From: a virus
Taxonomy: Duplodnaviria > Heunggongvirae > Uroviricota > Caudoviricetes
IMG/VR virus record: IMGVR_UViG_3300028805_000073
Reading direction: 5' to 3' (one strand)
DNA length: 64,000 nt
Part shown: one piece after another, positions 13,101 through 37,480 of the stretch
Position numbering within the stretch: the stretch's first letter is position 1
How the letters are laid out: each line of letters starts with the position of its first letter
The notes under the pieces: generated by a model
Databases searched by the model: none
Told to the model about the DNA's origin: nothing
What the model saw: the letters and a program-made list of their open reading frames with translations, nothing else
Program-made: the position numbers and the translations under genes

Positions 13101-16100
13101 TTCTTTTAAGTTCAAAGTCAAATTTTTTTCCTCCTACAATATTTCCCGTATTGTCTTTAGAATAGAATTTGGATTTAGAATTTTCCCAATAACGTCTAAC
13201 AAAAAAGTATTCATCATTAACAATATCTCCTATAGTATCATTACTTCTTAAACCAAATGTAGTTTTATAAATCATAGGAAGAATACATTCGTATGGAGTA
13301 ACTGTAGTTAAATTTTTATTTATTACTACTGGAGTATTGTTTATTATTACTTTATTTCCAGTTCCATTTGAAATACTATCAAGAGTTCTTTGGAAGGATG
13401 CTTGAAGCATATCTCCCATTGTTTCTGGAGTTACTTCAGTAGAAATTCCAAATTTTTCTAATTCTTGAATTAGATTCGGAGCTACTGATTCATCACCAGC
13501 AACATATTGATTCCAATATTTTTCTAGATTAGTTTGATTAAGTCCAGACTTAAATATTCCGTTCTCTTTATCCCAATCAAACAAACATCTAACAATATCT
13601 GTTTCCCATAAACTATAAGTATTACCATCTATAGAAACAATTTCAGCATCATAAGTTGCTAAATCTCTTCCTAAGGGCTAATAGTTTTTAAACTCTGGAA
13701 TCATTTCTCCACTGTCATTCAGAATAACATTTAGTCCTTTTTGAACAGCTTCTATTACATGAGCTCCATTTTGCATAGCATTTTTAACTTCATAAAAGTC
13801 TTCTAAGCTATCAATTAATTTTGGAGTAGCAGGACCTACCCCATAAATCATATAATAGTATCTTCCAAACTTAATTTGAGAAGATTTAGTTAAAGGATTA
13901 TTCCAATTCTAAGACTAAACAAGTTTAATTTCATTTTCTGAAATTTTTCCTTCTAATTTTCCATTAATTATTTTAAATATTCCATTAGAAGGATTAAGAA
14001 CTAACATTCCTCCATCAAATTTTAGTCTAATAGAAGATTTTTCTAAATTAGAAGCAAGTTTAGAAAAAAGATTTGCGAATATTTGTGGACTACTTATTGG
14101 GAATGAACCTTCTAACTAACTATAAGATCCAAATCTTTGGAATCTTTTTAATCCGTTTGCTATAGCTGATAATATATTTCCATCTGAAATAGATACATTT
14201 TTTAATGTCTATAACATTATATTAGCTACAGCTGTTTTAAATTGTTCAGAATCTTCTGTTAGTCCTTGATTTAGTTTATCTAATTCTCCGAAAGCCTCCT
14301 CAAATGACTATTCGGCTAAATCCTATAATGCCTAATAACATTCTTCAGCATCCTATTTAGAATAACCTCTAGCACCTAAAGCATTTATAACCTAAGTCAT
14401 TAGAGAAACATGTCCTCCTTCAGCAGTATGTTCAGCATCAAGCTATTCTCCAAAATCATCAGAGAAACATTCCATTACAGTTGGAACATAATCATCATCG
14501 TCTAATAACTATGTAGAATTAATATTTGTTGCTCCAAACTTTCCAGCCTCTGTAGTCGGAATCATATCTATTTGAGATTCCTTAACTACTTGTAATACAT
14601 TAGTTTGACTTACAACAGGCATATTTGGATTTAGTACTATACCAGTGTGATTCATTACATAATTAACTCCTTTAAAAGAACCATTATCATTTATAGAAGT
14701 TAATTTATGTTTAGAATCGAAATGACAAGAATAAGCTCCTCCAAACACATTCCATAATTCCCAGTTAGAATTTATAGGTGTAGCAACAAAATTAGGAATT
14801 TCTTCTCCGTTAATATTTGTAGCTAAATTTTCATTAACCTAAGCTGCTACAAAATTACCATTAGAATATCCAAAGGTTAACTAAACAGGTTTAGCATTTT
14901 TTCCTTCACCATTATCAAGTACTTCTTTAACAGTTACTCTAGTTATTCCATTTTCATCAATAGTTGGATTTGTAAAATGATAGAATTTATCCCCTTTCTA
15001 CACATACCATCCTTTTGAGAAATCTAATGGTTTTTTGTTAAAGTCTTCTAACCAATTAAAAAATGGATCATTATAACCATTAAATTTTAGAGTATCAGTC
15101 CATTTAATAGTATGATTCATTTTTTTATTCATTCTTTTTCCACGTTCTGAAGATTGAATATAATTATTACTTATAGCAAAACCTGCTGTTTTAACAATTC
15201 CACCAATTCCAGTTTTAGGATCAATAAAGTGAATGAATGGCTTCTTATCTTCACCCATAGCATCAGCACCAAGAGAATTATTATCTAAATCAACCATAGT
15301 TCCATTATAGAATGTAGCTCCATTATGTACTGCTATTTCATCACTCTTATAATCTCCCTTAAAAGTAATAGCAGAATCTTTTTCATCACCTATAAAAGTC
15401 ATTCTAAGTTTTCTTCTAATTCCTTTTAAGGAGTTTTGAACTTCTCTGTGTTTAGTAGCTGTATGAGAAACATTACGTTTTACTTGTTGTCCAAAATTAC
15501 CATATTCATAATTATAAATAGTAGAAGCATTATTATCACCAGGATGAGAAATAAAAGTTCCTACTGATGTTAGCTAATAAGATTCTCCTAACCAATTATT
15601 CAAAGCCTAATAACGTTCAATTTCTGGATTTAATTGAATATTAATAGAACTATTTATTCTGTTCTTAATTTTTTCAGCCTGTTCAGATTCTGGATTATCT
15701 TCTAAATATTTCTATAATGTCTTTAATTGCTCATTATAATCGAAATCAGGAGTATCTCCATCTAATTCATCAGTAATAGCAATATTTATATCAAGATTCA
15801 TTTGATATTTTGCTTTTTTTATCTTGATGTCTTCTTCCGATAATTTAGATTTTTCTTCCTAAACATGTCTTTCAATAGCTTCATTTCCCCAATTAGGATG
15901 TCTAGTTCTTAATTCATCTCTTAAAACTTCATCAATATCTCTAGTCTATCCTAATTCCTCTTCTAAGTAGTAAGGTAATATAGCATTCTAAGCATCTTTA
16001 AATTTAAATAAGTTGTACTTACTTATTATGTTTAAAGCGTTTAAAGTTTTAAGTAAGTTAAACCTTGGATTAGATATATTATATTCTGGAGAATTATCAA

Positions 16101-19100
16101 GTTCTCTCAGTCTTCTATAATCATTCCAATTTTCAAAGTCATTTAAAGATTGAATATTTATAGTTTCGTATCCGTTATTAATTTTAGCAATTACTATTGT
16201 ATTACCATTTCTCCAAACACCATTTTCATTATAATGTTGTGCAGCCCATGTAGCATTATCATTAACTTTAGAAGTATCATCTCCTAATCTTATTCTGATA
16301 TTATTCTATAATAATTCAGTAATAAGTTGTAAATTAAGTCTAGTTTGAGCTTGTTCTGGAGTTTCATTAATAGTATTTGTATCTAGATTATTAAGATACT
16401 TTTTACTTGTTCTTATTTTGTGTTTTGGTACTTCTCTTCCATAGATACTAAGCTAATGATATAAAGAAGGATTATTATGTAAAGATCCATCCTTACCCCA
16501 TATATAATGCATTTTTTCTGTAAGTCTTATAAGATATGGATCTACTCCATCTCTTCTAGCTTCAGTCTAGAATAAAGCTACAGCATCATGTAATACATTT
16601 TTAGGATTTAATCCTGCGTTTGTACATTGTTGATTAAATAATTCATAATCATTGTCATAATCTAATACAGCTCCAGGAAGTATTCTTTGTACATAAGGAA
16701 GAATATTCTCTAAATCAGACTTTATTCTATCATAAACACCCTAATAATATTTACCAAATTCTTCTTTTTGTAAATCTAATATTTCTTGTGTTGTTAATTG
16801 ATAAAAAGCTTTTATTTCTCCACTAGGTAGAGTTACTTTAGTTTTCCAGTTAAATCTAAGTTTTGGAAGTTTAGATTTATCAGAAACAACAGGACCCATT
16901 ATTCTAAAGTAACAATCTTCATAACTATCTTTACTTATATCACTTTGTGTTCCGTCTTTTGCTACAGCTAACTAACCGCCATAAAAATCCTAAATAAAAT
17001 TAGCTTCGAAAAATTCCGATTCAGAAAATGAAGTAGCCTATTTATTATTACCTACTTGAGAGTAATCTCTCATAAATTCAACCTCTTCTATGGTATCTAT
17101 AATTCTAAAATCTTTAATTATAGAATCTGGATCAGATAAATTGTTATTATAAACTAACTCAAGATATTTAGAAGCTAATGAAGAAAGCCCAACTAATGAA
17201 ATCTATTTTCTCTAACCATCTTTAGCAGTAGTATCTCCAGAATAACCCTATTGAATATCTAATGCTAAAGCAAATCTTCTAATATCAGTATAAATAGTTC
17301 TATTGGTTAGTTCTGGCTGCATTTGTCCTCTAGCAGGAGAAGGAGGATTCTCACTATAAAATTTAGCTATTTCTGCATCATATACTTCTTTTTCAGGAGT
17401 ACCTTTTTGTGATTGTATTTTTTGATAGATGTATTTTCCTACTTTATAATTATAAAGGATTGTTCCAGCAATGTTAATTAATTCTCCTAATGTTCCTCCT
17501 ATATTTGTAAATATATCTAAGAAATCATTATTAATTCTTTTATTAAATACTTCAGATAAGAAATCAGATAATTCTGGAGTTAATGTTGATATTTCTACAG
17601 ATTTTCCATTCTATAGTTTAGGAACTACTTTTACATTTCCATTATCTGCTTTAACTTCTAAACTAACTTCAGAATTATTTATTTTTATAGTAGTTGAATT
17701 TCCTTCACCAAAATCCTTTATCGTAAATGTCTTAAATGACTGTGGTAATTCAGCATTATAATTTGCCTACCAAATATATTTTTGAGAATTTAATCTAGAA
17801 TTAGAAGTATTCTATTGAAGTTGGATTGTACTTATTTTATTATCTGAATCTTTCTAATATTCTATCATTGGAATATTTTCAATATTCACAAATAGTGTAT
17901 TTACAAAAGTATATAAGTCTAATCCATCTAGATTAATTCCTCCGCTATTTTCCATTCTTCTTAATAAAGAATTAGTATTAGTATAATCAAATATATTTTT
18001 CCAAATTGAATAAACAGCCTACTTCTCCTAATATCTATCAAAGAATTCTTCTCTATAGACAGCTAAAATTCCAAATAAAAGTGGAGAATATAATGCAGGA
18101 TCTTTTTTAGTTTTAGCAAGTAATTCTCCTAAGGTTTTACCTTTTAATTCATCTAATACTATATCTTCCCATCCATCTTTATAGAACTAATCAATTCCAA
18201 ATCTTTTTAAAGTATCAGTAGAAATACTATCAAGACTAAATTGTCTCAAAGGAGTTCCATCTCTTTTATGGTTTCTATTGAATACTTTCATTATTCCTCC
18301 AATACCAGATTTTACATCTTGGAATGACATTTTAAAAGGAAGTAAAGCTCCATTTTTAGGGTCATACATATTTAAACTTTCCATAAAAAGTCTAATTATA
18401 CTTCCTATTTCGTCTGTTTCATCAACATCTTCACTCTAATCATTCCATCCTCTAGCATTTTTATTTCCTAAATTAATTTTATATTTTAATTCTTTAGTAT
18501 CATAATTACCTTTATATAAGACTTTAACAGAATCTCCAAAAGCATTGTTAACTAGTTCATCAAAATGATTCATTGCTATATATGATGTATAAGCTAATAA
18601 TTTCTTTTTTAGATTTCCATCAGACATAGTATTAATAGTTGGGAGTCTCAAAAGTTCTACAGGACTTAATTCTAATGATTTATTATCAAGCAGTTGTTTA
18701 AAATAATTTAATTTATCTTTAATAGAAAACTATTTAAAAGCACTATAATCTTTAGGAAAGAACTATTCAACATAATTATCCAAATTCTATTCAAAACTAT
18801 TTCTAAATTCTTTAATAGCTTTATCCATTTCTTCCTAAGTTATATTAACCTTAGAAAATGTATTATCACCACTAAAGAAGAATCTTTCTATTAAATCATT
18901 TCTGAATTTCTATTCAAATGCTAATCTAGCATCACTAGACATTGGAAAATATGAAGCTAATGTGTTTTGTTTTATAGCTTCTTTTTCATTCTTTTCCTAT
19001 TCAGTGCTATCAATATTATCAAATTTAGATTCATTATCAAGAGTACTTTCTATATAATTAGTATCAGTAGAAGTTAATTCTCCTTGATAATCTTGAGAAA

Positions 19101-19347
19101 GAACGGAGGCTAAATTTCCGTTCTTTCTCATTTTCCATATCATTCCAGCACTACTAACTATATCTTTAATAGAATCAAAGAAATTATCATCACTTACCTC
19201 TGAATAAGTATTTCTTAAATTCTTAAGTGCTCTTATATAATTATCTTCTAATTCCTATTTATCATTAATTCCTTCTAAGGAATTAACTATCTTTATAAAT
19301 TCTTGCTTAAATTGTTTATCCTAATTTAAACTACAAACATTTCCCAT
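10183..19347 (-). CDS. Giant virion/ejected protein G3 (~3054 aa)
   Basis: Frame 0 is maintained across ORF pieces 10936..11118 through 18436..18651. Start ATG 19347-19345 overlaps the G4 stop (TAATG). TGA 10183-10185 was verified as an in-frame stop. The interior frame continuity was not checked codon by codon. Confidence 0.45.
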
Positions 19348-22300
19348 TATACATCATATTTTATACACGAAATATTTTTAGAATTATCTTTAGTTTTTAT
19401 ACTTTCTTCTACAATTTCTAATAATTTATTAAACTTATCCGTATCAAGATTTTCTCCCATAAACGATGCTATCATATCTTCTTCTTTTATAGAGCGATTT
19501 AATCCTTCTAAAGCATCAAAATTTCCAGATTTAACTATTAATGCTGCTAACATTAACTTAGAAGTATTGACTTTTCTTTCTATAGTTCCATTATTATTAC
19601 TTTCAGTAATAACTCCTATTTCTTTCAACATTTCTTCGTTTTCAGGACTATAAAATCCTATAATATCATCAGCATAGCTAATTGATCCTGGAGCAAATAC
19701 TGAATCTACCATTTCCTATCCAGTTAATCCAGTATCATCTGGATTGACATAAGAATTAATATAATCTTGAATTATTTTCTTACCATTAGTAGTAAATCCA
19801 ATATTATTATTTAATACTTCCTATAATTCTTCTAATGTTGCTGTAGACTTAGTTGAGGCTTTAAATATTTCACCATTTTTAAGATAATATATTTCACTAT
19901 CTCCAATTCTAGCTAAAATATCCATATCTGTTAATTCTACTAGATCATATAATCCGTTATTTCTCTTGATAGGATATTTATTTAATCTATTAAATGCTAA
20001 ATTAAAAACATTAGGAAACTAAACATCTGTTCCATTATCTTTCATATACTCTTCTAATACTTTCAAGTTTTCAGAAGTAGCAGATTCTCTAGTAAGAAGT
20101 TTATTGGATTGTTTTAGTTTTTCCTATATTGGATCTACTGAAATACTTCTTTCTTTTTCTTCGTAAAAAGCTCCAGTATTTTCATTATATATACTTATTT
20201 TAGCAGAATCACTAAGTGTACTAAGTTTCTAAGAAGTTACAATTCTTCCATCATTGTGTTTTATAACTAACTTAGAAAGTATTTCATCCATTATTGGTTC
20301 TATATCTACAACAATTGCTGTAGTATCTAATTTTCCATTTATATCAATAGTCTTATCAGATAAGAAAGATCCGTCTTCTGCTTTAATCTAAGCTACTTTA
20401 TATCCTTTTGATGATATTTCAGTATCTTTCTTTAGATTAGAATGGAACATAATTCCAGTCCATCCATTACTCTCTAAATCTTCTTTTAAAGCATTTATTC
20501 TATTCTATTGATATGATTTATATTTATAATCATTTCCTACTCTTTCAATATAATAATCCTATCCAGATAACTGTCTTGATACGTATTTTCCTTCAGAATT
20601 TTTACTTTCATATAAATTCTCAGAGAATAAAAGTTTTCTAAACTCATATTGAAGAATAGTTCTAAGACTCTTATTACCATAACCTATCATTCCACTATCA
20701 GAAGTAGGTATAAACATTCTATAAAGTTCAGAGTCTACAGTTTTTAAGTTATCAAGACTCTAGTTTAAGAAACTTAATAACTATTTTGCTGGAGAACCTT
20801 CAGAAGCAGAAGGAACTAAAGATTTTTCATAAGTATCAAGATATTTCATTATATCTTTAACTCTTTGAAATCTTTTTTTAGCTTGATTTTTCTATTCATC
20901 TGTATCAGTATTATTAGAAATCCAATCTTCGAAGGCTTCCTAATATTTACTTCCTTCTTTAGTCATAAATGATAATAATCTATAAGAAGTAAGCATGTTA
21001 CCAATTGATTTATCTATATCATCAGCAGAAGTCTCATCTTCATTACCTCTTAAGGCTTCTTGCTAATTATATAAGAAATAATCAACACTTTCTTTTGGAA
21101 GATATACATATACTCTAGTAATTAATGGTTCAGAATCTTTATTAGAAATTTGTTCAATATATTTCTCAAATAACTCTGTATCAGTCATGTTAGAGTAATA
21201 ATCTGAAACTAATACAAATGGAACACCATGTTCTAATACTATATTTCCTTCAGCATCTTTTACATCTTCTTTAAGATTTTCTAATACCTATGAAATTTTT
21301 CTATTAGGCATCTTCTCTCTATATTCAGCAAGACTTAATCTCTATCCTTCATATAAGTAGTCTTTATCAAAATATTCACTACCTCTTGTTTTAGGAGGAG
21401 TCTAAACTCCTGTTAACTTACCAGAATTTAATACAAAGTCTTTATTAAACCTTATTACAAAATTTTGGTCTTTAGTATTATGTCCTGAATAATTCCACTA
21501 ATAAATCTCTAATAGTTTTAACATACTCTTTATATGTGGAATTGGTTCATTTTTTCTTCTAATAAGTTCCTAGTGAAAATTCATTAAATTTTCTCCGCTA
21601 TTAATGAATATGTCATTAAGCTATTCGAATCCTTTAGTTTTTACTAATGTAGCTGGAGAAGTTAAAATTCCTATAGGAATTTCAATTTGTTTTCCGTTTA
21701 CAAATATTTCTAAACCAAAAGTTCTCTTTTGAGGTTTTTCAATTTTTTCATTAGAGTTTTTATTGAATAAGTACATTAATTTATCTTTAACTCCTCTAAA
21801 TAATTTTATTAAAGGACCTCCAGAGACTCCTATGTCTTCATTCTAAGTATTCTTATAAATAAAATTAACAGATACAGAATCAGTACTTCTTAATCCAAAT
21901 GCTTCTCTTACTTTAGCTACAACATTTTCTGGAGTTTTTTCATATAATCCAGCAGTTCTAGTTTTATGTAGTATAGATAAAATTTGTTTCGTGTGTTCTT
22001 TCGATAACCTATCACCTTCAGAGTAATCTGTTCCGTCAGCTTTTTTAATATTTAAAGCTTTAATAATTCCATGAACATTATCAATTCTCTAAGATGTTTT
22101 TTCTCCTAAAACTAACAATCCGTCTTTGTCTATATATCCACCACATTCATTAGTATTAAATGTGTGTATTAACATATTTAGACTATCTTCAGAATTATTA
22201 TCTATATCTACAGGTTTTGGATTATTTCTAATATCTATTTTTTCGTCCTCAGTCTCCTCTTCTGGTTTAGGTTCTGGATTTTTCTTTTCATCAAATTTTT

Positions 22301-25300
22301 CTTCGCTCCAATCAACTTGTGCTGTAACAGAGGTTCCGTTTAATCCAGTTTGAATTGCTTTCTTTCTTGAATCAGCATACTTCTTTCTAGACTCTTGTCC
22401 AATATTAGATCTTACTAACTTATCCATCTAATGAGACTAAATTCTTTTACTTATTTCATCGCTACCTTGTCTTTCATAAATCAAAGTAGCTTGTTTAGCT
22501 CTAGATATTGCTGTATAAAGAGTCTTAAATTGATTAGTAGCTGCTATATAATCTTTAACATCAGAAGTAGGTCTTGTACTTAGTTCTATATCTACAATAT
22601 AATATTGTCCTTCCTAACTCTAAGCAGCTTTAGTTGATATTTCATTTATTTTATCTGCATAATTATTATGTAGATATTTATACATTTCAGAGTTTGGATC
22701 ATCATATATAAAGTTGATTTTTTCTCCCTCGTTTAAGGTATCTATCATCAACTTAATTCTATTTTTAGTATCAGTATCTAAATCAAAAGTAGATCCTGAA
22801 GCAGTTGTTATTTTATCAGAAGAAGCGATGACATCTCCAAATAATCCTTTCTCATCTTGATAGTATGAAAATATAGTTGGAGTAATATTTTTTCCATTGG
22901 ATAATAGACTATCTATAAATTTATATTTATTTAGTCGTAATCCTACTGTATTGTTAGATTTATATATATTATTCCCTCTGACTATTTGTCCTAACTTATG
23001 TGTAGATATATAGTTTCCAGCATCTTGTGTAATAAGAACAGATTTATCTTTAGATACTGCTAATGCTCCAGAAGCTCCTAACTAATCAAAGTCTCCAGCA
23101 TAAACACCATATATACCTTTAGCTTTCATAAAATCATCAACCATAGCAGCATCCATCTAAGAGAGTGATGTAGCCTCATCAATAATTATTAAGGAAGCAT
23201 CTAATCCATCTGGATTTAATGTAGCTTTCTTATATCTATATATACCATCATCACCAAACTCAACATCATCGTTATTAACTTCCATTCTACCATCTTTATC
23301 AACATTGAATGAAACATAATTGTTCATAATTTTTTGTCTAAACTCTTCAATTCCAAAATGTTGAGCTTTCTCTAACTATAAATTATTTTTTAGTGTTTCA
23401 GCGTTTTCTTTAGAGTTACTTACTATTACTACTTTTTCTAATAGTTTAGGATGGAATTTATCCAAAATATCAGTTAATGTTTTTAATACTGCACTAGATT
23501 TTCCACTTCCTGGTAATCCTTCTATAAAAATGCTTCTTCTAGCATTAATATACGAATAACCTTTATCATCCTAATCACTTTCCATTAAATTAGCGTTATA
23601 GGCATCAGCAAATAGGTTAAAGACCTTTGGATTTATTAAGAAACTTAAAGCTGTTTTTATAGCTTCTTCTTGTCCAATAATAGGAGCATACTATGATGTA
23701 ATAACTTCCTAATATTCGTACATTACAGCATCTGGATTTACAGCAGCTGTAGAAGCTAAATTCCATAATAAATCTTTATGAGGATATGATTTTTCTTCAG
23801 AATTTAAAATAGTAGATGTTCCATCACTATCAAATTTATGAACAATTTTTATATCCTTTAATAAAGTTTGTAATTTCTTTATAGATTTTTCTTTGTCTTC
23901 TTTTGTCTTATATTCGAATACATCTTTATTAACCTAGAAGAAATTATATAAAGCTCTATCTAATGACATTCTAGCATTAGTTATCTTTTCTTTATATTCC
24001 TAATTAATAATATCATCTTCTGTTAATTCACTAATAGAAGATTCTTCAACTGCCTTTTTTAACTAATCCACTTCGTTCCAGTCTCCTGGTTCTATATGTC
24101 CTACGAAAGTCTTTAATCCGTTTAATAAATTAATAGATTGAGTTCTATAGGTTTTATCATGTTCATTTAAAGCTTCGTTACTATTTATAGACTAAACTTG
24201 TTTAAATAATAATAATTCCTATTCATATCTATTAATATCTTGTTGTATTCCTACTGCTACATCTGCAGGAATAGTAGCTAACTGTTGTCCAGCTTTTCCT
24301 CTTTTAGCTCTAATTTCATTAACAGAAACATTATATCCGAATACATCTGATAAGTCTCCATTTATACTAGTAGCAGCTGATTCTAATCCAACTTTAGCTA
24401 GTTTAATTATACTTAAAGCATCATCAATAGCTTTCTCTACTTTATCATCATATGAAAAATTATTTAGTATTCTAGCTTTAGCTAATTTAGATACTAATGC
24501 TTCCATATCAGATACTAATGGAGATACTTCTATTCCTTTACTTTTTAAAGTTTTTGTAACTCCATTTAAATATTCATCAACTGGAGAGCTTGGAACATTT
24601 TTATATGAATCCATATATTCTTTAGCATCAGTTTCAGATAATAATGGAACTTCTATTATATCTCCTGATTCTTCATCTAAAATAGATATATTAGAATTAA
24701 AGAAATCATTTAATGCCTATTTAACAGTAGGTAATATATACTTAGCAGAAGATAACATCTTTTTTAATTCCTTTTTTACATCATCATCCATTAAAAATTC
24801 TTTTAACTACTAGTTAAAATCAGCTGCCTAAAACTAACGTTGTTCCTTTTCAAAACTAGATACTTCTGTTCTAAAAGCATTATTTAATACTTCATATTCC
24901 GCTCCAGTTTCTTCATTTTTTCGTTTTTCTATATAAGCATCAGCGTCTTTAGTCAATATATCATGGTCCTAGAATTCACTTATAGAACTTCTTAGTTCAT
25001 CTGGAGTAGTTGGAAGGTCTTTCCCTAATACTTCAGTTGCTTTAGTTTTTTGACTTATTATTCCTTTAATTTTATCTAAATATGGCTGAGCTTTTTCTTT
25101 CTCCATATTACCTAATATTATTTGCTATAAATTATTAAGTAATAAGTTAATACTATCCTTTCTTAAATGCAAATATTCTTCAATAGAAGGAATAGTAACT
25201 TCTTCATCAGCTAATGCTTCTCTTCTAGCTCCAAATAAAACTTCATTTAAATTATCAATAAAATTAGGATTATCAAAATAAGAATCATTATATTTTGTTA

Positions 25301-27983
25301 TTAATCCTGATAATTTCTCCATATTTTTAATATGAATCTATCTAGCCATTCTAGTTATATCTCTTCTTAATGGCTTAGAGTCTTTATATTTATTTTTCCA
25401 ATCATCATATTCTTTGGCAGATAATTCATCAATAGCTTTCCCAGTTTGTTCTTCAATCCATCTATCTGGATCTGTTGGAACATATTCTCCAGAAATTTTA
25501 GAAGTCATTTCAAAAAGAGCATCAAGGATAAATTCATCAGACATAGTTCCATCTTTAAACTTATCCAATTCCTCTTTGATACCTTTAATTTCCTCTTTTA
25601 GTTTTTTCTCTTTTTCAGAAGAATCTTCTCCTTCTTCTCTTTTCTATTTATCAGTTTTACCATTCTAGATACTCTTTAAATCAAAAGATTTCTATACTAA
25701 TTGAGAACTTAATTCATTATATCTATTTAGGTACCACTCTATAGAATTTGATTTTTCAGAAGCTAATGTAGCTAACATTCCATATTTTAAATCATCACGG
25801 AATCCTTCAATCATAGAATCTCTGGTAAGATCAGCACCATTAACCTTTAGTATATCTTTAATATCTGTAACTAATCTTTCAAAATTCTATTTAATAGCAT
25901 AGTCCTAACTTTTAGTAACATCATCTGTTTGATTTCCTTGTTCATCAAGATATTTGTTACCAAAATTCATTTTATACATAGTACTTAATAATTCTTTATC
26001 TTTTCCCTATTGTATAATATCAACTAACTCTTTAGTAGCAGCTTCCTATGACATTGTTCTATCAAATCTAGCTGATCTGTAAGCTGGTAAATATCCTGCT
26101 ATTCCTCCACCTACAGCTCCACCTACGAAAGATAAAGCATATCTGTCAAAAATATTTTCAAAATTATCATCAAACTTTGCTCCACTACCTAAAGATGTAG
26201 CTACATTGAAGAATGTTTTAGCAACATCCTATAAAAGTTCTTCAGAGGTTTCTTCTAATGCTTCAGACGCCATATTAGATATTGTGGAACCTAAAGTCTC
26301 ACTTCCAACACCTTCTCCTAAACTATTATTGTATGCTTTTTTACCTAAGTCAAATAGTTTCTAGTACCATTTTAGTTTTCCTAATTCAGTCTTAGTATCA
26401 GAATTAGACGTTACTTCTTTAACTTTAGGCATAGCTTTATTTATAACATTTCTTATATGTCTTTCCTCAGATTTTAATTCTGGAAGAATCCATTTTCCAA
26501 GTTCTGAGTTTAATAGTTTCCATTCACCTAAAGTATATCCTAAAGAGAACAAAGCAGCTTCAACATCTGTTGCTCCTGCTTCTTTAGCTTCACCATAAGA
26601 ACTAGCAGTAGTAATACCTGTCATATAAGCCATAGACAATTTACTACCTAATTCATTTGCTCCTTTTAGTTTATCCTATAATACTTTTTGAGCTTTACTA
26701 AAATTAATGGATTTTTGAGTTACTATTGCTGCTTCTGGAGTAACTCCTTTAGAAATTCCTTCAATAATTTCATCAATACTTCCAGCCTTATTAGAATTTT
26801 TGGCAATATAATCCTCAATCCATTTGTTTTGAGCCTCCTTACTAGAAATAATTTCCTTATTTAATCCAGAAAATAATGATGCTGACTTCTCAAACATCCA
26901 TCTCTATTCAGCTAACTATGTAAATACATCCGCTATTAATTTAAATCCTGTTTCAGCAGACCATAAATGTGCATCCTATAATACATTACCATTACTATCT
27001 TGAGAACCCTGTGTATAATCTGACTATGAAAAACTTAAAGCTTTGTCCCAAGCTTCTAGTCTATTAAAAATAGGTTCCCCAATATCTGTTCCTATAAAAG
27101 ATTCCAAAGTTTTACCTACAGATGGAAGGATTTGAGACATTCCTAAAGCAACTCTTGCTCCAATATACCATTCTCCAACACCAGGAATAAATGCTGGAAT
27201 TATTTGAGCAGCAGCTCTCATTAAAGAACCTCCGGTAGATTTTTCTATATCGTCTGAATCTAGAAAATCTAATCCATTCCAGAAGGAACCATCAGTAGTT
27301 AAAGTATCGAATCCAGAAAGAACTTCTTTACCATAAACATCTCTTCCATTAAGATCCTCGTAATAATAAGTACCATTATTATTTAATTTTCTTTCTCCTT
27401 TTTTATGTTCTATTTCTTCTCCAGTAATAGGATCTTTATGTACTCCATCTTCATCCCATGTAGCTAATACTTTTGGATTTAAGAAATTATCAAAAGGAGT
27501 TTCGTTTGGTGCTTCTTCCCAAGTATTTGTATCTGGATTCCATACTTTCTAAGTCTGAGCAATTTCTCTTATAGATTGTGTTGGATTTTCTTTTAATCTA
27601 AAATCAATAAATCCACTTTGTTGTCTTAAAGGATTAGATACTTTTTGAATATTATATTGTGGAGACCTATCTCTTAAATATTCTGGCATAGAAATATCAT
27701 TTCTATACGCCTTCCATGTTTTACCTAAATCATCTGTTTCTTTTATTTTGGCTAAGTTTATAAATCCATTTTTTGCATAATTATAAAAATTATCAAACTT
27801 AGCCTAATCAAAAGTTCCATTTGTTTTAAATACATCTAAATTTTGAATGTAATTTGAATTACGATAAATATCTTTATCCTATATAGATGTATTGTCTACT
27901 GATAACCCAACCTAGTTAAAATCATCAGCACTGAAGGTTGGATTACTTAGTAGACTTAAAAAATAGTCATTCTATTTTTCCAT
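19347..27983 (-). CDS. Giant virion/ejected protein G4 (2878 aa) with an internal SF1 (Pif1/RecD/Dda-like) helicase core
   Basis: Frame 2 runs across pieces 19347..19712 through 27024..27221. The helicase motifs lie at ~22440-23560: Walker A EGLPGSGKS, motif II LIIIDEATSLS, motif III VYAGDFD[TAG]LGASG, motif VI LYTAISRAK. ATG 27983-27981. Stop TAA 19347-19349. Confidence 0.6.
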
Positions 27984-27984
27984 T

Positions 27985-30900
27985 TTAGTTATTTATAATT
28001 TGTGATAAAGTAACATCTTGAGGTTTATAATTAAGAGATTTAGGAGCATACTACATTAGTTGTACTGTAGAAGCATTATCTGGAAGATTTTGTTTCATAG
28101 GACGTCCAGAACTTACAGCAGCAAAAGCAACATCTTCATCATAAGGAATAAATATAGTTCCTTTATAAAGTTCGTCTTTTCCCCATCCTGTAAGCCACAT
28201 TCCGTTTCCTAAACTATAATTTTTATTACTCTTCTTCATTGCTTCTTCATATAAATCTCTTTCTACATCACCTGCTAACTAAACTTCATCAGATAAAACA
28301 GCTTCTTTATTCTAAAGGGCTTGTTCATCTAAAGTAGCCTAAATAGCAGCAAATCTCATATATTTTTGAGTATTAAGTTCTCCGTTTTGATTATATTTTG
28401 GAGGTAATCCAACACTCTAATAAACTTCGTTTATTTTATCAGGATCAGTTATATTTTGTTGTGATATAATTTCATCAGCCTTTTCAATCAACTTACATTT
28501 CTAAAAATCTGGAACAGTATTTCCATTTAAATCTACTTTATATGGTAAATCTACTCCCATAATTTCAGAGTTATTTAATATAATATGACTATAAGCTCCA
28601 GGATTTAATCGTGAACCACCAAATGTTGCTTGTCCTAATTTTAAGAAACTAAACTGTGATTTACTAACATCTTGAAGAGTTGATCCCTATCCAAGATTTT
28701 CTTGAGAGTGATTCTAAATAGTTCCTCTTATTCCTAAGGCCCTAATAGCTACAGATGTTCCTGTATTAAAGTCTACAATTTCTCTAGGACCTTGTCCAAG
28801 TACAAATGCTAATCCCGCAGAGTTATCTGCTCCTCCTCCTTTTGAACTAGAACTTCCATTGGTATCACTACTAGCTTTTCCAGTTAAAGGAGAAATAGAT
28901 TCCTAATAGGAACTATTAGTTTGAGAAACTAACATGTTTCCAATCATTTTAATACTATTATTTTCATTACCAAAATGTAATTTCATTATAGTTTTATAAT
29001 TATTAGGTAACATTCCATATATATATTTTAATGCTGCTTGTATATTATTCTATGAGTCTTTAGTCTATTGAGTAATTTTATAATATCCATCAGGAGTTCC
29101 ATCAAATCCAGCAAGTATTTGTAATCCGTTTTTAATTTTATTAGATTCAACTTGCGAAATTCCTTCTATTTTTTGCTCCGATGAACCGAGTGTTGAAGCA
29201 AGATTTTTAATTTGAGCTGCAATCTTATTCATTCCAACACCTCTATTTACTACATCAAATATTTCATCATTAAATGCCAAATTTGGAGAATGTGCTCTTG
29301 CAGTAAGTAACTAACCATTAGTTAATGGATTTAGTTTTCCTCCAGATTTCTAAATGTCAGAGATTGTTCCTTTTTTAATTTTTCCAGTTTCTTGATCCTA
29401 TAAGAACAAACTATTATCAGAAGCAACAGCAATTTCATCCATAGCATCATTAGATACGGCTTGATTATATGCTTTATCATAAGCATCTTTACTATACTTA
29501 AGATATGTTAATTTCTACATTGAACTAAGATACATTGATGCTAAATCATCAGTTGTTAATTCCTCTCCTAAAGCTTTAGCTTTAAATATAGTATTTGATA
29601 TGTCTTTATATATTAAGGAAGTATCAATGGGTAATGCTGAAGCTGAAACAGATTTAAATAACTCTTTAATTAAATCAAGTTTATCTTTTTCAGCTTCACT
29701 TTTTTTATCAGAAGAAGATTTACTACTACTTGAAGAAGTTGATGTCTGAGTACTTACTGTTGATTCTCCACCACCCAATCCTAATGGACGGTATATATAA
29801 AAAGGGGCAACACCTCCCAGCTACATCTTTTTTGCTTTAGGACGTGGAGTTAGCTTTACAGTTTTAGGTAATGTTCTTACTCTAGAATCATCTGTCATTT
29901 TAGTTATTCTTCTAAAATGATCGACTATATCCTTAGATACTTTATAGAGAAATTTATCACTTTTATCTTTATATTCTAATTTTGTTCCAGATTTAGCAAT
30001 GTAAAGTCCTTGCTCATTCCAATTCTTCTTTTTCTAAAGCATATAGTTTTGATATTTTTTATTAGCATCTTCAAATGCTTTCTTTAATGTTGGATTATTT
30101 TTATCGTTACTATAGGCTTCTAGAGCTTTGTCTCTGTCGCTCTATAAATCTTGTAAAATAGTATCATTTAATAAATCTTGCTACATTGTAATTTGAGCAA
30201 GTTGTCTATCATATAGTTTTCTTTCATTATTTTTCTATAACAGTTTACTCTGTGCTCCAAGTAAATACTAATCAGTATTTGTCCAATCAGCTAATAATTT
30301 CTATGCTTTTAACTATTGCTTAGCAGCATTAGCTTTGTTTATTTCTAATAAATTATTATTAGCTACAGTTGTATCCCTTTCTCTATTAGCATCAGCATGC
30401 TAGGAAGCTAATTCAGAAGTTTCTCTAATTCTCTAATTATCAGCTAAATCTCCTTGTGCTCTTAATTCATCACCAACACGTTTATGCTCCATCATATAAG
30501 CTACTTGTCTATCAGCATCTGATGTAAATGGTTGAGCAGCTTTTGTCTAACCTTGAGCAGCTCTTCTATAATATGTTTGTTTAGTAGCTTCATCACCAAC
30601 TACCTATCTATATGTATGATAACTCTATTGAAGACTTGGACGGATTCCTTTTAACATTTCATCAAATACTCTATTATTTGTATGTAATGTTCCAATTAAT
30701 CGTGCTGCATCAAGTGCATCAGGAGCAATATTTCTAAATCCAGCTATTAATTTTTCTCTAAAAGCATTTCTTTTAGCTTCTTCATCAGCTCTTTCCTAAG
30801 CTGCAATTTCATTTTCTCTTTTGGCTAAATTAAATTTTGAAACCACATCATTATTTGGTTTCATCATATAATCATGTAAAGGAGGATTATTAGGAGTTTT

Positions 30901-31521
30901 TCCAGTAACAACTGTATCTGGAAGTAACCTTTCTAGATAATAATATCCATCATCTTTTAAAGCCATTTTCCATCCTGAATCCTTCAATTCAGAATTAAAT
31001 TGGTTAAGACTCTATTCATCCCAGTCTCCTTTTCTACCCAATAATCTTCTATCATCGGTTATTGCTGAATATAAATTATCAACTAAAAACTTCTTTCCAG
31101 AGTTATCTCCAGAATATCTTGTTGGAGGGCTATCAATTCTATATCTTGTATTAAAGTTTGGAGATATACCCTGATTAAAATCATAAGTATCATTAAAATC
31201 ATACTATTTAATAGTACCATCATTATTTAATCCTCCTTTATATCTTAATTGATAATCGCCAACTGCATTATCTTCATAAGCTTGATTTTGCCAAGTGTTA
31301 GATTTTCCACCTGCTCTATGATAAATATCAGAATGAGCCGATTGCATATTATTAAGCCAATTACCATATTCATCACTAAGAGTTCCTCTTTTTTTAAGTT
31401 CTTCTAAAATATGTTGTCTGTAATTAGCAAAAACCTAATTCAACCAATCGGCTCCTGTACCATTGGAAAATCTAACACCACTTTTAGCTTTAATTATATA
31501 TTGTTTAGGTCTTATATTCAT
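27985..31521 (-). CDS. Large virion protein G5 (1178 aa), Ser/Gly-rich tracts
   Basis: Frame 0 across pieces 28051..28239, 29065..29280, 29515..29778 and 30796..30987. ATG 31521-31519 overlaps the G6 TGA (ATGA). Stop TAA 27985-27987. Confidence 0.5.
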
Positions 31522-34217
31522 ATATTATTATTTTTAATAAAATCTTTAATTATCGTATCTATTGAAGGATTAATTTGTCCTCCTTGTTTTAAATATCCTT
31601 CTTGCTTTAATTTTCTAATTAAATCAAATTTTATTCTAGAACGATTTTCTTTTGGAACTTGAGAATCTATTTTTTTCATTACGTCTTTTCTAAGAACTTC
31701 TAAAGTTTTACTTTTTATGTCAGCTTTAGTTCCAGTTACATTAACCCTAGTTCCTCCAAAATCAATTTGTAAAGTATGTGTTCCATCAGAATTTCTTATT
31801 CCATATAAATCTCCAAATCCTTTTATACTTCCGACAACTCTACTTTCATCTTTAAATTCATTTGTACTAAAATTTTTACCTCTTAAAGTAGATTGTAATT
31901 CTTTTGAATCTTTCTTAGATAATACAGAAGGTTTTGGTTTAGCATTAGATCCAGTAGATGTTGAAGTAGTATGTAATGTAGAAGAAGTATTTGAAGAAGA
32001 TTGATTCTACTATTTAGTTCCTTTAAATGGTCTATTAGGAACAGGATTCCATGTTTGTTTAATTCTGTCTACAATGTTTATATTTGGTGTAGATACTCTA
32101 GCAGCACTCTAATATATATCATAATCAGTAGGTAAATATTTTAAAAGTGGATGTTTAGCTTTATCTCTAATATTTTTTATAGCTAAAGCTCTAGAATATC
32201 TCTATACTTCTGGAGATTGTCCGATGTTTTTAGTAGATGATTCTAATTTAATTTTATTAGTAGGATCTATTTTACCTTTTACTCCAGTTTTAAAATTAAC
32301 ATTAACTTCATCATCAGCTTTAGCTCCAGGAAGTTTTCTTAATTCTTCATTAGCTTTATTATTTCCGCCTTTTCTTCCTGCTTTATTTATAGTATCAACC
32401 TATTCCTAAGTTGCTTTAATTTTTCTTCCAGACTTTGTAGTAATAAAAGTTTCTGTTTCTGTATTTTGAGTAACTGTAGGTTTATATTTTCTATTATTAA
32501 CAATTCCTTTAGTTCCTCTAGATAAACCTGCAGCAATACTTAAACCATAAGCAATATTCTTCCAATCGGTGTTTGTTAACTCTTTAGGATTGCTAATAGC
32601 TTTCTATAAGGCATTATAGGATTCTGGTAAATCTTTAATAGCCTATAAAGTTAATAATCGTGGAGCCCATTTAGCAATATTTGTTATCCATTTTCCTGTT
32701 TTAGATGTTAATCCTAATCCAGGAACCATACCAACAGCAGCTAAACCAAGATTAACTCCAGCATTTTTAGCTACATCCAATTTGCTCATGGATTCATCAT
32801 TTATATCTGCTACCATATTAGTTCCTAATGAGGTTAAACCTAAAATTCCTGAAGCAGCCATACCATAAGGTCCTCCCCAAGCAGCAATACCTCCAGCTAT
32901 ATCCTAGGCCATTGCTCCCATTCTAAGATAATCTTCAGTTTCAAAACCTTCACTTAATTTTCTATTAGCAGCTTTCAATTTATTATCTTGTTCCTTTTTA
33001 GCTAAAGCTTCAGGACTATTCTAATCTAAAATACTCTATAATGTAATTCCATTAGAGTTTAATTCTCTCTAAGGCTGTACTATTCTTCTAGCTATTGAAT
33101 CATAATAAATTCCATCTAATCCGTTTATTTTTTTAAGTCTAGATGGATTATTAGCATATCTAGGCATCCACTATAGTTCTTCTTTAGAAAGATTCTACAA
33201 TCCTCCAGATTTTTCAGCTTGTCTAAATGCCCAAGATATTCTAGATATATCATTTCCATCAAGCTACTAATTATTAGCTAATTTTAATGCAATATTATTA
33301 AAGTCTTCCTAGTTAGATGGAGTTCCATTTAAATAATTATAGTATCTATAGTTCTTATATTGGTTTGCATAATTTGCCTCTCTTAAAGCTGCAGCTTGTT
33401 TTGCTTTATCCTCAGCCTATTGTTTCTAAAGCTAATTCCACTAACTATATGTATATGGATTTCCAGTCTGTGGATTTATATTATTAGTGTATTCGTTACC
33501 TCCATTACTAAAGAAATTTCTATAGTTTAAACCTAAAGCACTAAATGCTGGTAAATCATCAGACTCTTCATCTGTACCAAGAGCATCAATAGCTTTCTAT
33601 AATTTTGTTAAAGCATCGTTTTTATCTTTAAATGATGTTCCTTCAAAATTATAGTCTTTTCTTTCTAAATCCTATTTGTAAAGTTTAAGCTATTCAGCCA
33701 TTACTCTTCTACGTTCTTTAGTACCTCTAAGTCCATCATTACCTCTAGCATCAAGAGAATTCCAACCTTGTTCTGAATCTGAAAAAATACTAGAATCTCC
33801 ACCATAAAGATTTAGAAGTTGTTTCCCAAAACTAGTTTTAAAGTCAAAAGGTTCTAATTCTTTTTTAACTTCTTCTTCTTTTTTTCGAGGAGTCATTTGA
33901 GACATTTTATTCTATATGTACCAGGCAGCATCAGCATAAATCTCTTTATCAATATTTGACATTGAATCTGTATCAATTCTATCTCCGTTATATTTAATTT
34001 TCCACTATCCACTTTCACTTGATGCTCCAGTAATACCATGATTTATAATATCCTAATATGCAGTCATCCATTTATCACGATATTTAGGATTTCGTAACCA
34101 TCGTTTACTATTTAGATATGTAGGTAAATCGTTAGCCAGTCCTGTCATTAAGTCCTACTAAGAGATTTCGTCTTGACCATATAATAAATATTTTTCTTCC
34201 TAATTTATATCAGCCAT
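31518..34217 (-). CDS. Virion protein G6 (899 aa) with Gly-rich hydrophobic segments, tape-measure- or ejection-protein-like
   Basis: ATG 34217-34215 was hand-translated through piece 33690..33905 (MADIN[Q]EEKYLLYGQDEIS[Q][Q]DLM...). Piece 32643..32861 has GILGLTSLG...GLAAVGMVPGLGL. Stop TGA 31518-31520. Confidence 0.5.
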
Positions 34218-34242
34218 AATCAATTAATTTAAATAATAAAAG

Positions 34243-34275
34243 GGTGACACGGCTATCGTGTCCGCATCACCCTTT
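34243..34275 (-). terminator. Imperfect hairpin followed by a U-rich tract between the small ORF and G6
   Basis: GGGTGA-CACG-gctat-CGTG-tccgca-TCACCC, then CTTTTATTATTT on the - strand. Confidence 0.35.
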
Positions 34276-34283
34276 AGTTTCAA

Positions 34284-34613
34284 TTACTTTTGAATCCATC
34301 TGGAAAGCTTACCACCTTTTTTAAATACTGGTTGCTGTCCTTCAGGAGCGGCAGGACCTTCAGGGGCTCCTCCACCTAACATCTAAACTAATGCCTATAA
34401 AACTTGCATAGCTAAATTACAATCTTGATTTTGTAAAGCAGCCATAGCAGCTTCTAATATCTAAGCAGTAGGATCTCCTCCTTCTGGAGCACCTTCTGCA
34501 GGTGCACCTCCTTCTGGAGCTGCTTCTGATGTTTCTGGGCCTTGAACTGGTCCCCCTTCTTGTAACTTACGAATCATTTCAGTAAGTTTTTTGTCGTTTG
34601 ATTTAATGTTCAT
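34284..34613 (-). CDS. Small Pro/Ala/Glu/Gly-rich protein (109 aa, 3 in-frame TAGs)
   Basis: Hand translation MNIKSNDKKLTEMIRKLQEGGPVQGPETSEAAPEGGAPAEGAPEGG... Its start overlaps the stop of the upstream endonuclease gene. Confidence 0.4.
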
Positions 34614-35559
34614 AATTACTAATAATATTATTAATGTTAATTATAAGATTATCAAAATCTTGTTTTGAATAATCATATTTTAATTCAAATAATATACAGT
34701 TATTTTCCTTACATTTATTTCGTTTTATATTATCTTTTATCTAAGTATCTTGAAATTTTATTGTTCCTCCAAAATGCTCTATAGGAATATAATGTTGTTC
34801 ACCATTATATTCTATTGCTATATTATATTTAGGAAAATAAATATCAATTCTCTAATTTTCTATCCAAGGAATTATCTTTTTAGTTACTTCAAATAAAATT
34901 TCTTCATGTGGAAAATATTTCTGTAATTCTTCATAAAGTTTTGTCTAAGACTTTAACTAGCATTTTGGACATCCTCTTCCTTTTAAATGGTTATTTGGTG
35001 TCTATATAAATTCTCCATGTTTTTTACATATTATAGTAATAGGAGTTCTACTATTTTCATATATAACTTTAGAATAATCATATTTATTATTATGTAATTT
35101 AGAAGCCTTTACTATAAAATCTTGTAAACTATCTTTTTGTTTTTCTTTATTATTTTCTCTACTACACTATAAACAACCATAACCACTAAGATGATCATGA
35201 GGAGACTACATAAATTCTCCATGCTTAGGACATATTATAATTATCTTTTCTTTATTATTTTTACCATAAATAGATTTGGAATAATCATACTTAAAATTAT
35301 GTACTCTATTAGCTTTTTCTATAAAAGAGGTTATATCTCCTTTTTGACTTTCAGCTAACTGTTCAGTTTTGCATTTTAAACAACCGTTACCTCTTAAATG
35401 ATTATTAGCTATCTACCAAAACTCTCCATGCTTAGGACAAATTATACATACTTTTTCAGAAGATTTTTTATAAATTACTTTACTATAATCATACTTATCT
35501 CCATGAATTTTCTTAGCATTCTAAATCCATTGTTCTGTTGTAATTTTCTTTCTACTCAT
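34603..35559 (-). CDS. Homing-endonuclease-like protein: three N-terminal zinc-ribbon repeats plus a C-terminal PD-(D/E)XK (DUF559/Vsr-like) nuclease domain (318 aa)
   Basis: Three ~68-aa repeats of the form KYDYSK.IY....ICPKHGEF.[TAG].P..HL.G.GC..C, then RIDIYFPKYNIAIEYNGEQHY. TAG occupies the same repeat position in all three copies. Confidence 0.6.
34880..35500 (-). repeat. Intragenic tandem DNA repeats (3 units of ~205 bp) encoding the zinc-ribbon modules
   Basis: Near-identical nucleotide blocks, for example CTCCATGCTTAGGACA..ATTAT at ~35210 and ~35425. Confidence 0.45.
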
Positions 35560-35730
35560 ATCATTTTTATGTATCGTTAAATTAAAAATTTAGGGGCAGA
35601 AGAACGATACTAAACTTCCATAGTCGGTTAATTACTCCGATTTAGCCCTTAATTTTTATAAATTGCTTAATAGGACAAATTTTAAATATCTTTTAGGTAA
35701 AAATATTATTTATTCTATTTTAGTCAAATT

Positions 35731-35973
35731 TTAATTAGATATATTAACATTCTTCTTAAAAATATCTGTAACATTATCCAATCCCATAAGTGAAGCACTT
35801 GTAACATAAACTAATTCTGCAAAATCAGGAATTTCTTTATTAAGTATAAATCCAGCTATTAATAGAATTAAACATACAGTCATACCGAGTGCCCCAAAAA
35901 TTCTTTTTGAGCTAAAACCTCCACTATGGGCCTAAAATGTTGTTCTCCAGCCAAATTTATCCCTAGTATTCAT
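35731..35973 (-). CDS. Holin-like small membrane protein (80 aa, 1 TM)
   Basis: Translation MNTRDKFGWRTTF[Q]AHSGGFSSKRIFGALGMTVCLILLIAGFILNKE... Its ATG overlaps the lysin TGA (ATGA). Confidence 0.45.
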
Positions 35974-36725: not shown

Positions 36726-36726
36726 A

Positions 36727-37329: not shown

Positions 37330-37480
37330 AATTATTAAGTTTTACTTTCAACATATTCAATTTCAGCATCATAAGGAAGAGGAGAAGATTGCTACCAAAT
37401 TAAATTACTACCAATATATAACACTTCTGCTTTTTGAGAACCTAACATTATATCAATAGCATTTTGTATATCTGTACTTA

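What the first reader, a model, noticed from the sequence alone, without database searches (positions are those of the whole stretch)
23030..23110. TAG falls exactly on the invariant Gln of SF1 helicase motif III (GDxxQL)
The - strand translation here is VYAGDFD-[TAG]-LGASGAL. In Pif1/RecD/Dda-type helicases motif III is GDxxQLxP, with an essentially invariant Gln. Finding the amber codon at that position is direct, sequence-internal evidence that TAG is decoded as Gln. It argues against read-through with an arbitrary residue.
Basis: partly seen in the sequence, partly recalled or inferred. Interest (0 to 1): 0.7.

Follow-up and report, generated by a model that had tools for sequence, protein, structure and literature searches.

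The report
Amber codon read as glutamine
In this gut or rumen phage the stop codon TAG sits exactly where a helicase needs an invariant glutamine, and relatives carry only CAG, CAA or TAG there, so TAG is read as glutamine; this recoding is already well documented in such phages.

Summary
TAG at 23082-23084 (- strand) is codon 1637 of a 2,882-codon late ORF (19347-27992) that contains 63 in-frame TAGs. In an alignment with T4 Dda, E. coli RecD and 50 relatives, this TAG falls on the motif III Gln (GDxxQ).

Across 91 related sequences (89 fetched loci, the window and MT835492.1) that codon is only CAG (58), CAA (21) or TAG (12). A second TAG (22620-22622) falls on the motif V Gln.

The window-wide evidence agrees:
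- 212 X-masked TAG positions were aligned to the standard-code relative MT835470.1. 19.8% lie opposite Gln, against 21.1% for CAA/CAG codons and 0-5.4% for every other residue.
- Gln beats Glu, the next-best residue, by 44 log-likelihood units.

The window is the late, structural module of a distant crAss-like phage. That module has 423 TAGs in 20,138 codons and uses only TAA or TGA as stops. The adjacent early genes have no in-frame TAG in 2,953 codons.

This is genetic code 15, confined to late genes. It has been described, and confirmed by proteomics, in crAss-like phages. The finding is therefore a well-supported new member of a known kind, not a new phenomenon.

One gap remains: I found no tRNA(CUA) suppressor in any sequence I could reach.

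The parts
23082..23084 (-). In-frame TAG codon at the motif III Gln position of the SF1 helicase domain (the finding)
   Evidence: The aligned column is Gln in Dda, RecD and all standard-code homologues. Across 91 sequences only CAG, CAA or TAG occupy it.
23070..23102 (-). Helicase motif III, YAGDFD-TAG-LGAS
22620..22622 (-). Second in-frame TAG, on the motif V Gln (Dda HKAQG, RecD HKSQG, relatives KSVQG)
   Evidence: The column holds Q 46, TAG 5, gaps 3.
23496..23519 (-). Motif I (Walker A), GLPGSGKS
23166..23192 (-). Motif II, LIIIDEATS
22491..22520 (-). Motif VI, LYTAISRAKQ
   Evidence: Weak Pfam UvrD_C_2 match.
22464..23552 (-). SF1 (RecD/Dda-like) helicase domain, residues about 1481-1843 of the giant protein. 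It contains 5 in-frame TAGs.
19347..27983 (-). Giant late gene (2,878 codons from the first ATG, stop TAA) with 63 in-frame TAGs. It is collinear with a TAG-free 2,970-codon ORF in MT835470.1.
2541..63999 (-). Late/structural gene module written with TAG as a sense codon: 26 ORFs, 423 TAG against 488 CAA/CAG in 20,138 codons, all stops TAA or TGA
1..2490 (+). End of the oppositely oriented early module, in the standard code (no in-frame TAG)

Best explanation
The window is the late (virion and structural) gene module of a distant crAss-like phage from a gut or rumen community. In this module TAG is a sense codon for glutamine (NCBI genetic code 15), while TAA and TGA still terminate.

The TAG at 23082-23084 encodes the motif III glutamine of an SF1, RecD/Dda-like helicase domain. 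That domain is embedded in a roughly 2,880-residue late protein. In this family TAG arises from, and reverts to, CAG by a single C/T transition and behaves as a synonymous Gln codon.

Shown here:
- the position of the codon on the motif III Gln;
- the Gln identity, inferred from comparative sequence;
- the restriction of TAG to the - strand late module, with the adjacent + strand early genes free of in-frame TAG.

Inferred from published work on other recoded phages, not shown here: early genes are translated in the host's standard code; a suppressor tRNA(CUA) charged with Gln then accumulates; only after that can the TAG-rich late genes be translated in full, so the code acts as a timing device.
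For: - Reading TAG as sense raises ORFs of at least 150 aa from 13.9 kb to 64.5 kb. Reading TGA as sense gives almost no gain, 15.6 kb.
- ORFs then begin at an ATG within a few codons of the upstream stop and are tightly packed.
- The module is collinear over about 57 kb with standard-code MT835470.1 at 22-61% amino-acid identity.
- Of 212 X-masked TAG positions, 42 (19.8%) lie opposite Gln. The figure is 21.1% for CAA/CAG and 0-5.4% for all other residues. Gln is best by 44 log-likelihood units.
- Motif III column: Gln in Dda, RecD and all standard-code members; TAG 12, CAG 3, CAA 3 in AT-rich relatives, one of which (L046) has no TAG in the helicase segment examined; nothing else.
- In columns at least 90% conserved among standard-code members, 21 of 31 TAGs fall on Gln columns, although only 4 of 63 conserved columns are Gln.
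- Against close relatives, window TAG pairs with TAG 85, CAA 55, AAA 31, GAA 22, CAG 10. Window CAA/CAG pairs with CAA 86, TAG 40, AAA 37, GAA 23, CAG 11.
- Early genes have 0 TAG in 2,953 codons and two of them end in TAG. Late ORFs have 423 TAG in 20,138 codons. The same split is seen across the whole of MT835492.1.
- Literature: TAG-to-Gln recoding concentrated in structural and lysis genes of crAss-like and other gut phages (bioRxiv 10.1101/2021.08.26.457843); proteomic confirmation (PMC9523058); the same conserved-Gln argument applied to TerL (PMC10607447).
Against: - No suppressor tRNA(CUA) was found in the window (Rfam), in the 8 kb upstream, or in the whole 121.6 kb of the recoded relative MT835492.1. 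The single low-threshold ARAGORN call there is not supported by Rfam.
- Only about 72 kb of this phage's genome was visible.
- The amino acid is inferred from comparative sequence, not from peptides.
- The X-masked window helicase segment is below the Pfam cut-off.
- hhalign support for the motif II-III alignment to Dda is weak, at 10% probability.
Confidence: 0.93

Rival explanations
1. TAG is suppressed, but the residue inserted is another amino acid (Glu, Lys, Tyr, Trp, Pyl) or a mixture produced by near-cognate read-through.
For: Glu and Lys are the next most frequent residues opposite TAG, at 24 and 18 of 212 positions. No dedicated tRNA(CUA) was found.
Against: Glu and Lys are also the commonest replacements of CAA/CAG Gln, so their frequency reflects ordinary Gln substitution. 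Gln beats Glu by 44 and Lys by 48 log-likelihood units. The motif III Gln column admits only CAG, CAA or TAG. With up to 82 TAGs in one ORF, low-efficiency read-through could not yield full-length protein.
Confidence: 0.04
2. TAG is a genuine stop, and the helicase and neighbouring giant ORFs are decayed or fragmented pseudogenes, or short genes.
For: Under code 11 the region breaks into short ORFs. The protein database search found no homologue.
Against: Only TAG interrupts the frames, never TAA or TGA, over ORFs of up to 3,586 codons. Conservation continues across the TAGs, collinear with a TAG-free homologue. TAGs are conserved in position among relatives, with 85 shared sites. The major capsid protein and other essential virion genes also carry TAGs.
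Confidence: 0.01
3. The host itself, not just the phage, uses TAG as Gln, so there is no temporal code switch.
For: No phage suppressor tRNA was found.
Against: The early genes of the same phage contain no in-frame TAG in 2,953 codons, and two are called with TAG stops. The same split occurs in MT835492.1, where 7 of 62 early ORFs end in TAG. Published host predictions for such phages are standard-code Bacteroidetes or Firmicutes (bioRxiv 10.1101/2021.08.26.457843).
Confidence: 0.02

Closest known systems
Genetic code 15 (TAG to Gln) in late genes of crAss-like and other gut phages (Borges et al., bioRxiv 10.1101/2021.08.26.457843; Peters et al. 2022, PMC9523058; Phassvirus, PMC10607447)
   Same: In-frame TAGs are confined to the structural/late module and the early module uses the standard code. 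TAG aligns with conserved Gln in standard-code relatives. The genome is AT-rich. Close standard-code relatives exist. TAA and TGA are kept as stops.
   Different: No tRNA(CUA) was detected in the reachable sequence; the Borges preprint itself detected one in only 40% of TAG-recoded genomes. The lineage is very divergent: its major capsid protein is 22-24% identical to Crassvirales capsid proteins, and 7 of 8 virion proteins had no PHROG hit.
SF1 helicases of the RecD/Dda type (Pfam AAA_30 and AAA_19; PDB 1W36 chain D, RecD)
   Same: Motifs I, Ia, II, III, V and VI occur in the same order. GDxxQ and the Q of motif V are conserved. RecD is the best solved-structure hit.
   Different: The domain is embedded in the middle of a roughly 2,880-residue late protein rather than being a free-standing replication or recombination helicase. 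There are large inserts between motifs III and V. Motif V lacks the usual T-x-H before the Q. The UvrD_C_2 score is weak. No activity has been tested.
E. coli supE (glnV) amber suppression. Recalled from general knowledge, not tested here.
   Same: A tRNA-Gln with a CUA anticodon inserts Gln at UAG. This is the model for how a phage suppressor would act.
   Different: supE suppression is partial and affects the whole genome. Here decoding must be nearly complete and acts on a dedicated set of genes. No such tRNA was found.

Membership tests
SF1 helicase (RecD/Dda-like) | Motif I, Walker A, GxxGxGK[ST] | tested here: met
   GLPGSGKS at 23496-23519 aligns with Dda GPAGTGKT and RecD GGPGTGKT.
SF1 helicase (RecD/Dda-like) | Motif II, DExx | tested here: met
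   IIIDEATS aligns with Dda LICDEVSM and RecD LVVDEASM.
SF1 helicase (RecD/Dda-like) | Motif III, GDxxQ, with an invariant Gln | tested here: met
   The window has G-D-F-D-TAG. The column is Gln in Dda, RecD and all standard-code homologues, and only CAG, CAA or TAG occur there. This is met on condition that TAG encodes Gln, which searches support independently.
SF1 helicase (RecD/Dda-like) | Motifs V (xQG) and VI (YxxxTRa) | tested here: met
   KAA-TAG-S-TAG-E aligns with HKSQGSE, and LYTAISRAK aligns with VYTAVTRAR. In the window the G of QG is replaced by S.
SF1 helicase (RecD/Dda-like) | Profile score above the curated threshold | tested here: inconclusive
   Window with TAG masked as X: AAA_30 23.5 bits, below the cut-off of 27. 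With Gln substituted: 27.8 bits. Standard-code homologues: 15 of 15 hit AAA_30 and AAA_19, with best E-values of 3e-9 and 7e-9; L044 and MT835470.1 are above the cut-offs.
SF1 helicase (RecD/Dda-like) | ATP-dependent DNA unwinding or translocation | not testable with these tools
   This needs biochemistry.
Phage genetic code 15 (TAG to Gln) | In-frame TAGs in conserved ORFs, with ORF lengths restored only when TAG is read as sense | tested here: met
   ORFs of at least 150 aa rise from 13.9 kb to 64.5 kb with TAG as sense. TGA as sense gives 15.6 kb.
Phage genetic code 15 (TAG to Gln) | TAG positions align with Gln in standard-code homologues | tested here: met
   42 of 212 positions are opposite Gln and Gln is best by 44 log-likelihood units. 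21 of 31 TAGs in conserved columns fall on Gln columns. Codon tallies agree.
Phage genetic code 15 (TAG to Gln) | Recoding concentrated in late/structural genes, with early genes in the standard code | tested here: met
   0 TAG in 2,953 early codons against 423 in 20,138 late codons. MT835492.1 shows the same split.
Phage genetic code 15 (TAG to Gln) | Phage-encoded suppressor tRNA(CUA) | tested here: not met
   None was found in the window, in the 8 kb upstream or in MT835492.1. 17 close MT835492-like loci also lack one within 10 kb of the tRNA cluster. The window's genome is incomplete here, and published surveys find such a tRNA in only 40% of TAG-recoded genomes, so this does not exclude membership.
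Phage genetic code 15 (TAG to Gln) | Gln detected at TAG positions in peptides | not testable with these tools
   This needs metaproteomics, as was done in PMC9523058.
crAss-like phages (Crassvirales and relatives) | Major capsid protein homologous to crAss-like capsid proteins | tested here: met
   The MT835470.1 orthologue of the split window gene (55565-56500 plus 57764-58339) hits annotated major capsid/head proteins of uncultured crAss-like phages (cr1_1, cr55_1, cr125_1 and others) at 22-24% identity, E 1e-8 to 3e-4. The relationship is distant.
crAss-like phages (Crassvirales and relatives) | Giant virion RNA polymerase with a DxDxD motif | tested here: inconclusive
   ORF 8596-19353 contains GSDFDIDKAN, but a phmmer search of solved structures found no RNA polymerase.

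The most novel reading that the evidence does not exclude
This divergent crAss-like lineage may decode TAG as Gln almost completely (up to 82 TAGs in one ORF) without a conventional phage tRNA(CUA). None is detectable in the full 121.6 kb of the recoded relative MT835492.1 or in the 72 kb seen for this phage. That would imply an unrecognised suppressor: a non-canonical or processed tRNA, a retargeted host tRNA-Gln, or a protein cofactor. A conserved early YqeY/GatB-like gene lies 3.5 kb upstream of the window, and a ribozyme-like element flanks a tRNA in the relative.
Probability: 0.1. Interest if true: 0.7.

Novelty: new member of a known kind. Interest (0 to 1): 0.25.

Why it matters
For annotation, the practical point is that this contig must be translated with table 15 on its late strand. 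Otherwise about 57 kb of virion genes break into fragments. These include a capsid gene, an SF1 helicase domain and several proteins of 1,500-3,600 residues.

Biologically, it adds a very divergent crAss-like lineage, with both standard-code and recoded members, to the phages that write late genes in a different code from early genes. The lineage offers a clean comparative series, in which CAG, CAA and TAG alternate at catalytic positions, for studying how recoding spreads.

It does not change what is known about the mechanism.

Tried and rejected
- The word-indexed protein search found nothing, either with the Gln-substituted helicase domain or with a two-sequence profile.
For the same reason no structure prediction or fold search was possible.
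- phmmer and profile searches of solved structures gave only P-loop-level hits, with RecD top at E 0.006, and did not reach motif III.
- Megablast against phage records, and an exact 40-mer scan of IMG/VR, found nothing.
- A low-threshold ARAGORN call of 'tRNA-Pyl(cta)' inside a coding region of MT835492.1 was rejected, because Rfam finds no tRNA there.
- A 'tRNA-Stop(tta)' and a tRNA with a two-base anticodon in the MT835492-like locus L124 have poor or odd structures and were not pursued.
- The early YqeY-domain protein as a recoding-specific factor: homologues occur in both the standard-code and the recoded relative, so its presence does not correlate with recoding.
- ORF 8596-19353 as the crAss-type virion RNA polymerase: there is only a DFDID motif seen by eye and no hit to a solved structure.

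Full report
**1. The observation**

The - strand of 23030-23110 reads GIYGVYAGDFD-TAG-LGASGALAVSK. The TAG occupies 23082-23084. It is codon 1637 of a frame that is open from 27992 to 19347 if only TAA and TGA are treated as stops. That frame has 2,882 codons, 63 TAG, 56 CAA/CAG, an ATG at codon 4 and a TAA stop. The coordinates and the quoted peptide are therefore correct.

**2. The TAG lies on the motif III glutamine of an SF1 helicase**

With every TAG masked as X, the segment shows the SF1 motifs in order:
- motif I, GLPGSGKS
- motif Ia, VIVSNSKENA
- motif II, LIIIDEATS
- motif III, GDFD-X-L
- motif V, STKAA-X-S-X-EG
- motif VI, LYTAISRAKQ

On its own the masked segment is a weak Pfam match: AAA_30 at 23.5 bits against a cut-off of 27, plus a faint UvrD_C_2 match. 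With Gln substituted, the whole protein reaches 27.8 bits on AAA_30.

The word-indexed protein database returned nothing.

tblastn against phage records found one homologue, MT835470.1, an unannotated 117-kb human-gut phage. Its 2,970-codon orthologue has no TAG at all. The helicase segment of that orthologue passes the Pfam cut-offs for AAA_30 (35.6 bits), AAA_19 (33.0) and Viral_helicase1 (30.5).

Profile-guided scans then recovered 19 IMG/VR loci and 75 metagenome loci. All 15 standard-code members I tested hit AAA_30 and AAA_19. The family profile's best solved-structure hit is RecD. hhalign against RecD gives 87.7% probability over motifs I-Ia. hhalign against Dda aligns DEvS...GDfdQ with DEVS...GDNKQ, but at only 10% probability.

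I took real T4 Dda and E. coli RecD sequences from their genome records. In MAFFT alignments with them, the window's TAG falls on the Gln of Dda GDNKQ and RecD GDRDQ. A second TAG, at 22620-22622, falls on the motif V Gln (HKAQG, HKSQG).

**3. Which codons occupy that column**

Among 89 related loci the motif III codon is as follows:
- CAG 55 and CAA 18 in loci with at least 34% GC; the helicase segments examined in this group are TAG-free apart from one low-coverage assembly, L063;
- TAG 10, CAG 3 and CAA 3 in the AT-rich loci.

The window and MT835492.1 add two more TAGs. No other codon ever appears.

Within the window's own clade (38-97% identity over the aligned part of the ORF), L034, L035, L036, L039, L041 and L042 have TAG. 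L037, L038, L040 and L043 have CAG or CAA. CAG and TAG differ by one transition.

In columns at least 90% conserved among the 36 standard-code members, 21 of the 31 TAGs of recoded members fall on Gln columns. Gln columns make up only 4 of the 63 conserved columns.

**4. Window-wide test of the amino acid**

The whole - strand module (2.5-59.4 kb) is collinear with MT835470.1 at 22-61% identity. In tblastn with TAG scored as X, 212 TAG positions aligned, and 42 of them (19.8%) lie opposite Gln. CAA/CAG Gln is opposite Gln 21.1% of the time. Every other residue is opposite Gln 0-5.4% of the time.

I compared the residues found opposite TAG with those found opposite each of the 20 amino acids. 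Gln wins by 44 log-likelihood units over Glu and 48 over Lys.

Against closer relatives (L032, L034-L043) the codon spectra of TAG and CAA/CAG are almost the same:
- window TAG pairs with TAG 85, CAA 55, AAA 31, GAA 22, CAG 10;
- window CAA/CAG pairs with CAA 86, TAG 40, AAA 37, GAA 23, CAG 11.

**5. Context**

Reading TAG as sense raises long ORFs from 13.9 kb to 64.5 kb. Reading TGA as sense does not. The 26 late ORFs carry 423 TAG against 488 CAA/CAG codons and stop only at TAA (21) or TGA (5).

The 27 early genes on the + strand, which span the window start and 8 kb upstream (L031, 99.9% identical to the window over the overlap), have no in-frame TAG in 2,953 codons. Two of them end in TAG. 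The recoded relative MT835492.1 shows the same split over its whole 121.6 kb.

The gene at 57764-58339 plus 55565-56500 is the major capsid protein. Its MT835470.1 orthologue is 22-24% identical to annotated crAss-like capsid proteins. The phage is therefore a distant crAss-like lineage. Seven of eight virion proteins have no PHROG hit.

This pattern matches published descriptions of code 15 in late genes of crAss-like and other gut phages (bioRxiv 10.1101/2021.08.26.457843). It has been confirmed by proteomics (PMC9523058). The same conserved-Gln argument has already been used for TerL (PMC10607447).

**6. Mechanism: shown and inferred**

Shown here: TAG is a Gln-equivalent sense codon in the late module, including at two catalytic helicase positions, while the early genes avoid it.

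Inferred from the literature: a Gln-accepting suppressor tRNA(CUA) made early in infection switches the code.

I could not find that tRNA. It is absent from:
- the window;
- the 8 kb upstream;
- MT835492.1;
- the tRNA clusters of 17 MT835492-like contigs.

Only about 72 kb of this phage was visible. The published survey detected a TAG suppressor in only 40% of TAG-recoded genomes. This is therefore a gap, not a contradiction.

**7. Verdict**

The phenomenon is already known and experimentally validated in related phages, so this is a new and unusually clear member of a known kind. Interest is low to moderate. The main residual novelty is the missing suppressor tRNA.

Noticed in passing
window 55565-58339 (- strand); insertion at about 56456-57799: The major capsid protein gene is split. 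Its two halves (57764-58339 and 55565-56500) form one continuous 473-codon ORF in MT835470.1. The 1.34-kb insertion begins with a group I intron match (RF00028, 57631-57805, 40.5 bits, below the cut-off of 50, E 1.6e-8). It carries a homing endonuclease ORF (phrog_314, GIY-YIG-like by eye; 56501-57610), the only sizeable late-strand ORF with no TAG in 370 codons.
   Followed up: partly
L028 (MT835492.1) 12403-12540: An HDV-like ribozyme match (RF02682, 28.9 bits, below the cut-off of 44, E 0.023) lies immediately 3' of tRNA-Met in the TAG-recoded relative. This is the arrangement described for theta ribozymes in recoded gut phages (PMC10879173). ARAGORN also missed a tRNA at 12157-12221, which I read by eye as tRNA-Thr(UGU).
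   Followed up: partly
L031 4433-4915 (about 3.5 kb upstream of window position 1): An early gene in the standard code encodes a YqeY/GatB-like domain (Pfam PF09424, 59 bits). From general knowledge, this domain helps GlnRS bind tRNA-Gln in some bacteria. Homologues occur in both the standard-code and the recoded relative, so there is no specific link to recoding.
   Followed up: partly
L031 5112-5684 and 7188-7766; window 1-397: The early region also encodes an isochorismatase/nicotinamidase-like protein, a cytidylyltransferase-like (NMN adenylyltransferase-type) protein and a Band 7/SPFH protein. The first two suggest an NAD salvage module.
   Followed up: no
window 8596-19353 (- strand); MT835470.1 about 42.0-43.0 kb: The 3,586-codon ORF next to the helicase gene contains GSDFDIDKAN, which resembles the DxDxD metal site of crAss-type virion RNA polymerases. 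No sequence hit to a solved structure was found. In MT835470.1 the orthologue changes frame close to this motif, which suggests an insertion or intron there.
   Followed up: partly
L109, L110, L114, L116, L118, L121, L122, L125 (MT835492-like IMG/VR contigs): ARAGORN calls phage-encoded tmRNA genes (tag peptides ARVINMTPAYQAAA and ARVINMTPVSYAIAA) a few kb upstream of the tRNA cluster in these TAG-recoded relatives.
   Followed up: no
window ORFs 52301-53425, 54594-55472, 56501-57610: TAG use is uneven among late genes: 2 TAG against 12 CAA/CAG, 1 against 3, and 0 against 12 in these ORFs, compared with roughly 1:1 in the giant ORFs.
   Followed up: no
L032 (Logan SRR27373473_628) against window 2006-4986: A related phage shares a 99.4% identical early gene (window 2044-2490), but its adjacent late giant gene is only 73% identical at the nucleotide level. 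This points to recombination at the boundary between the early and late modules.
   Followed up: no
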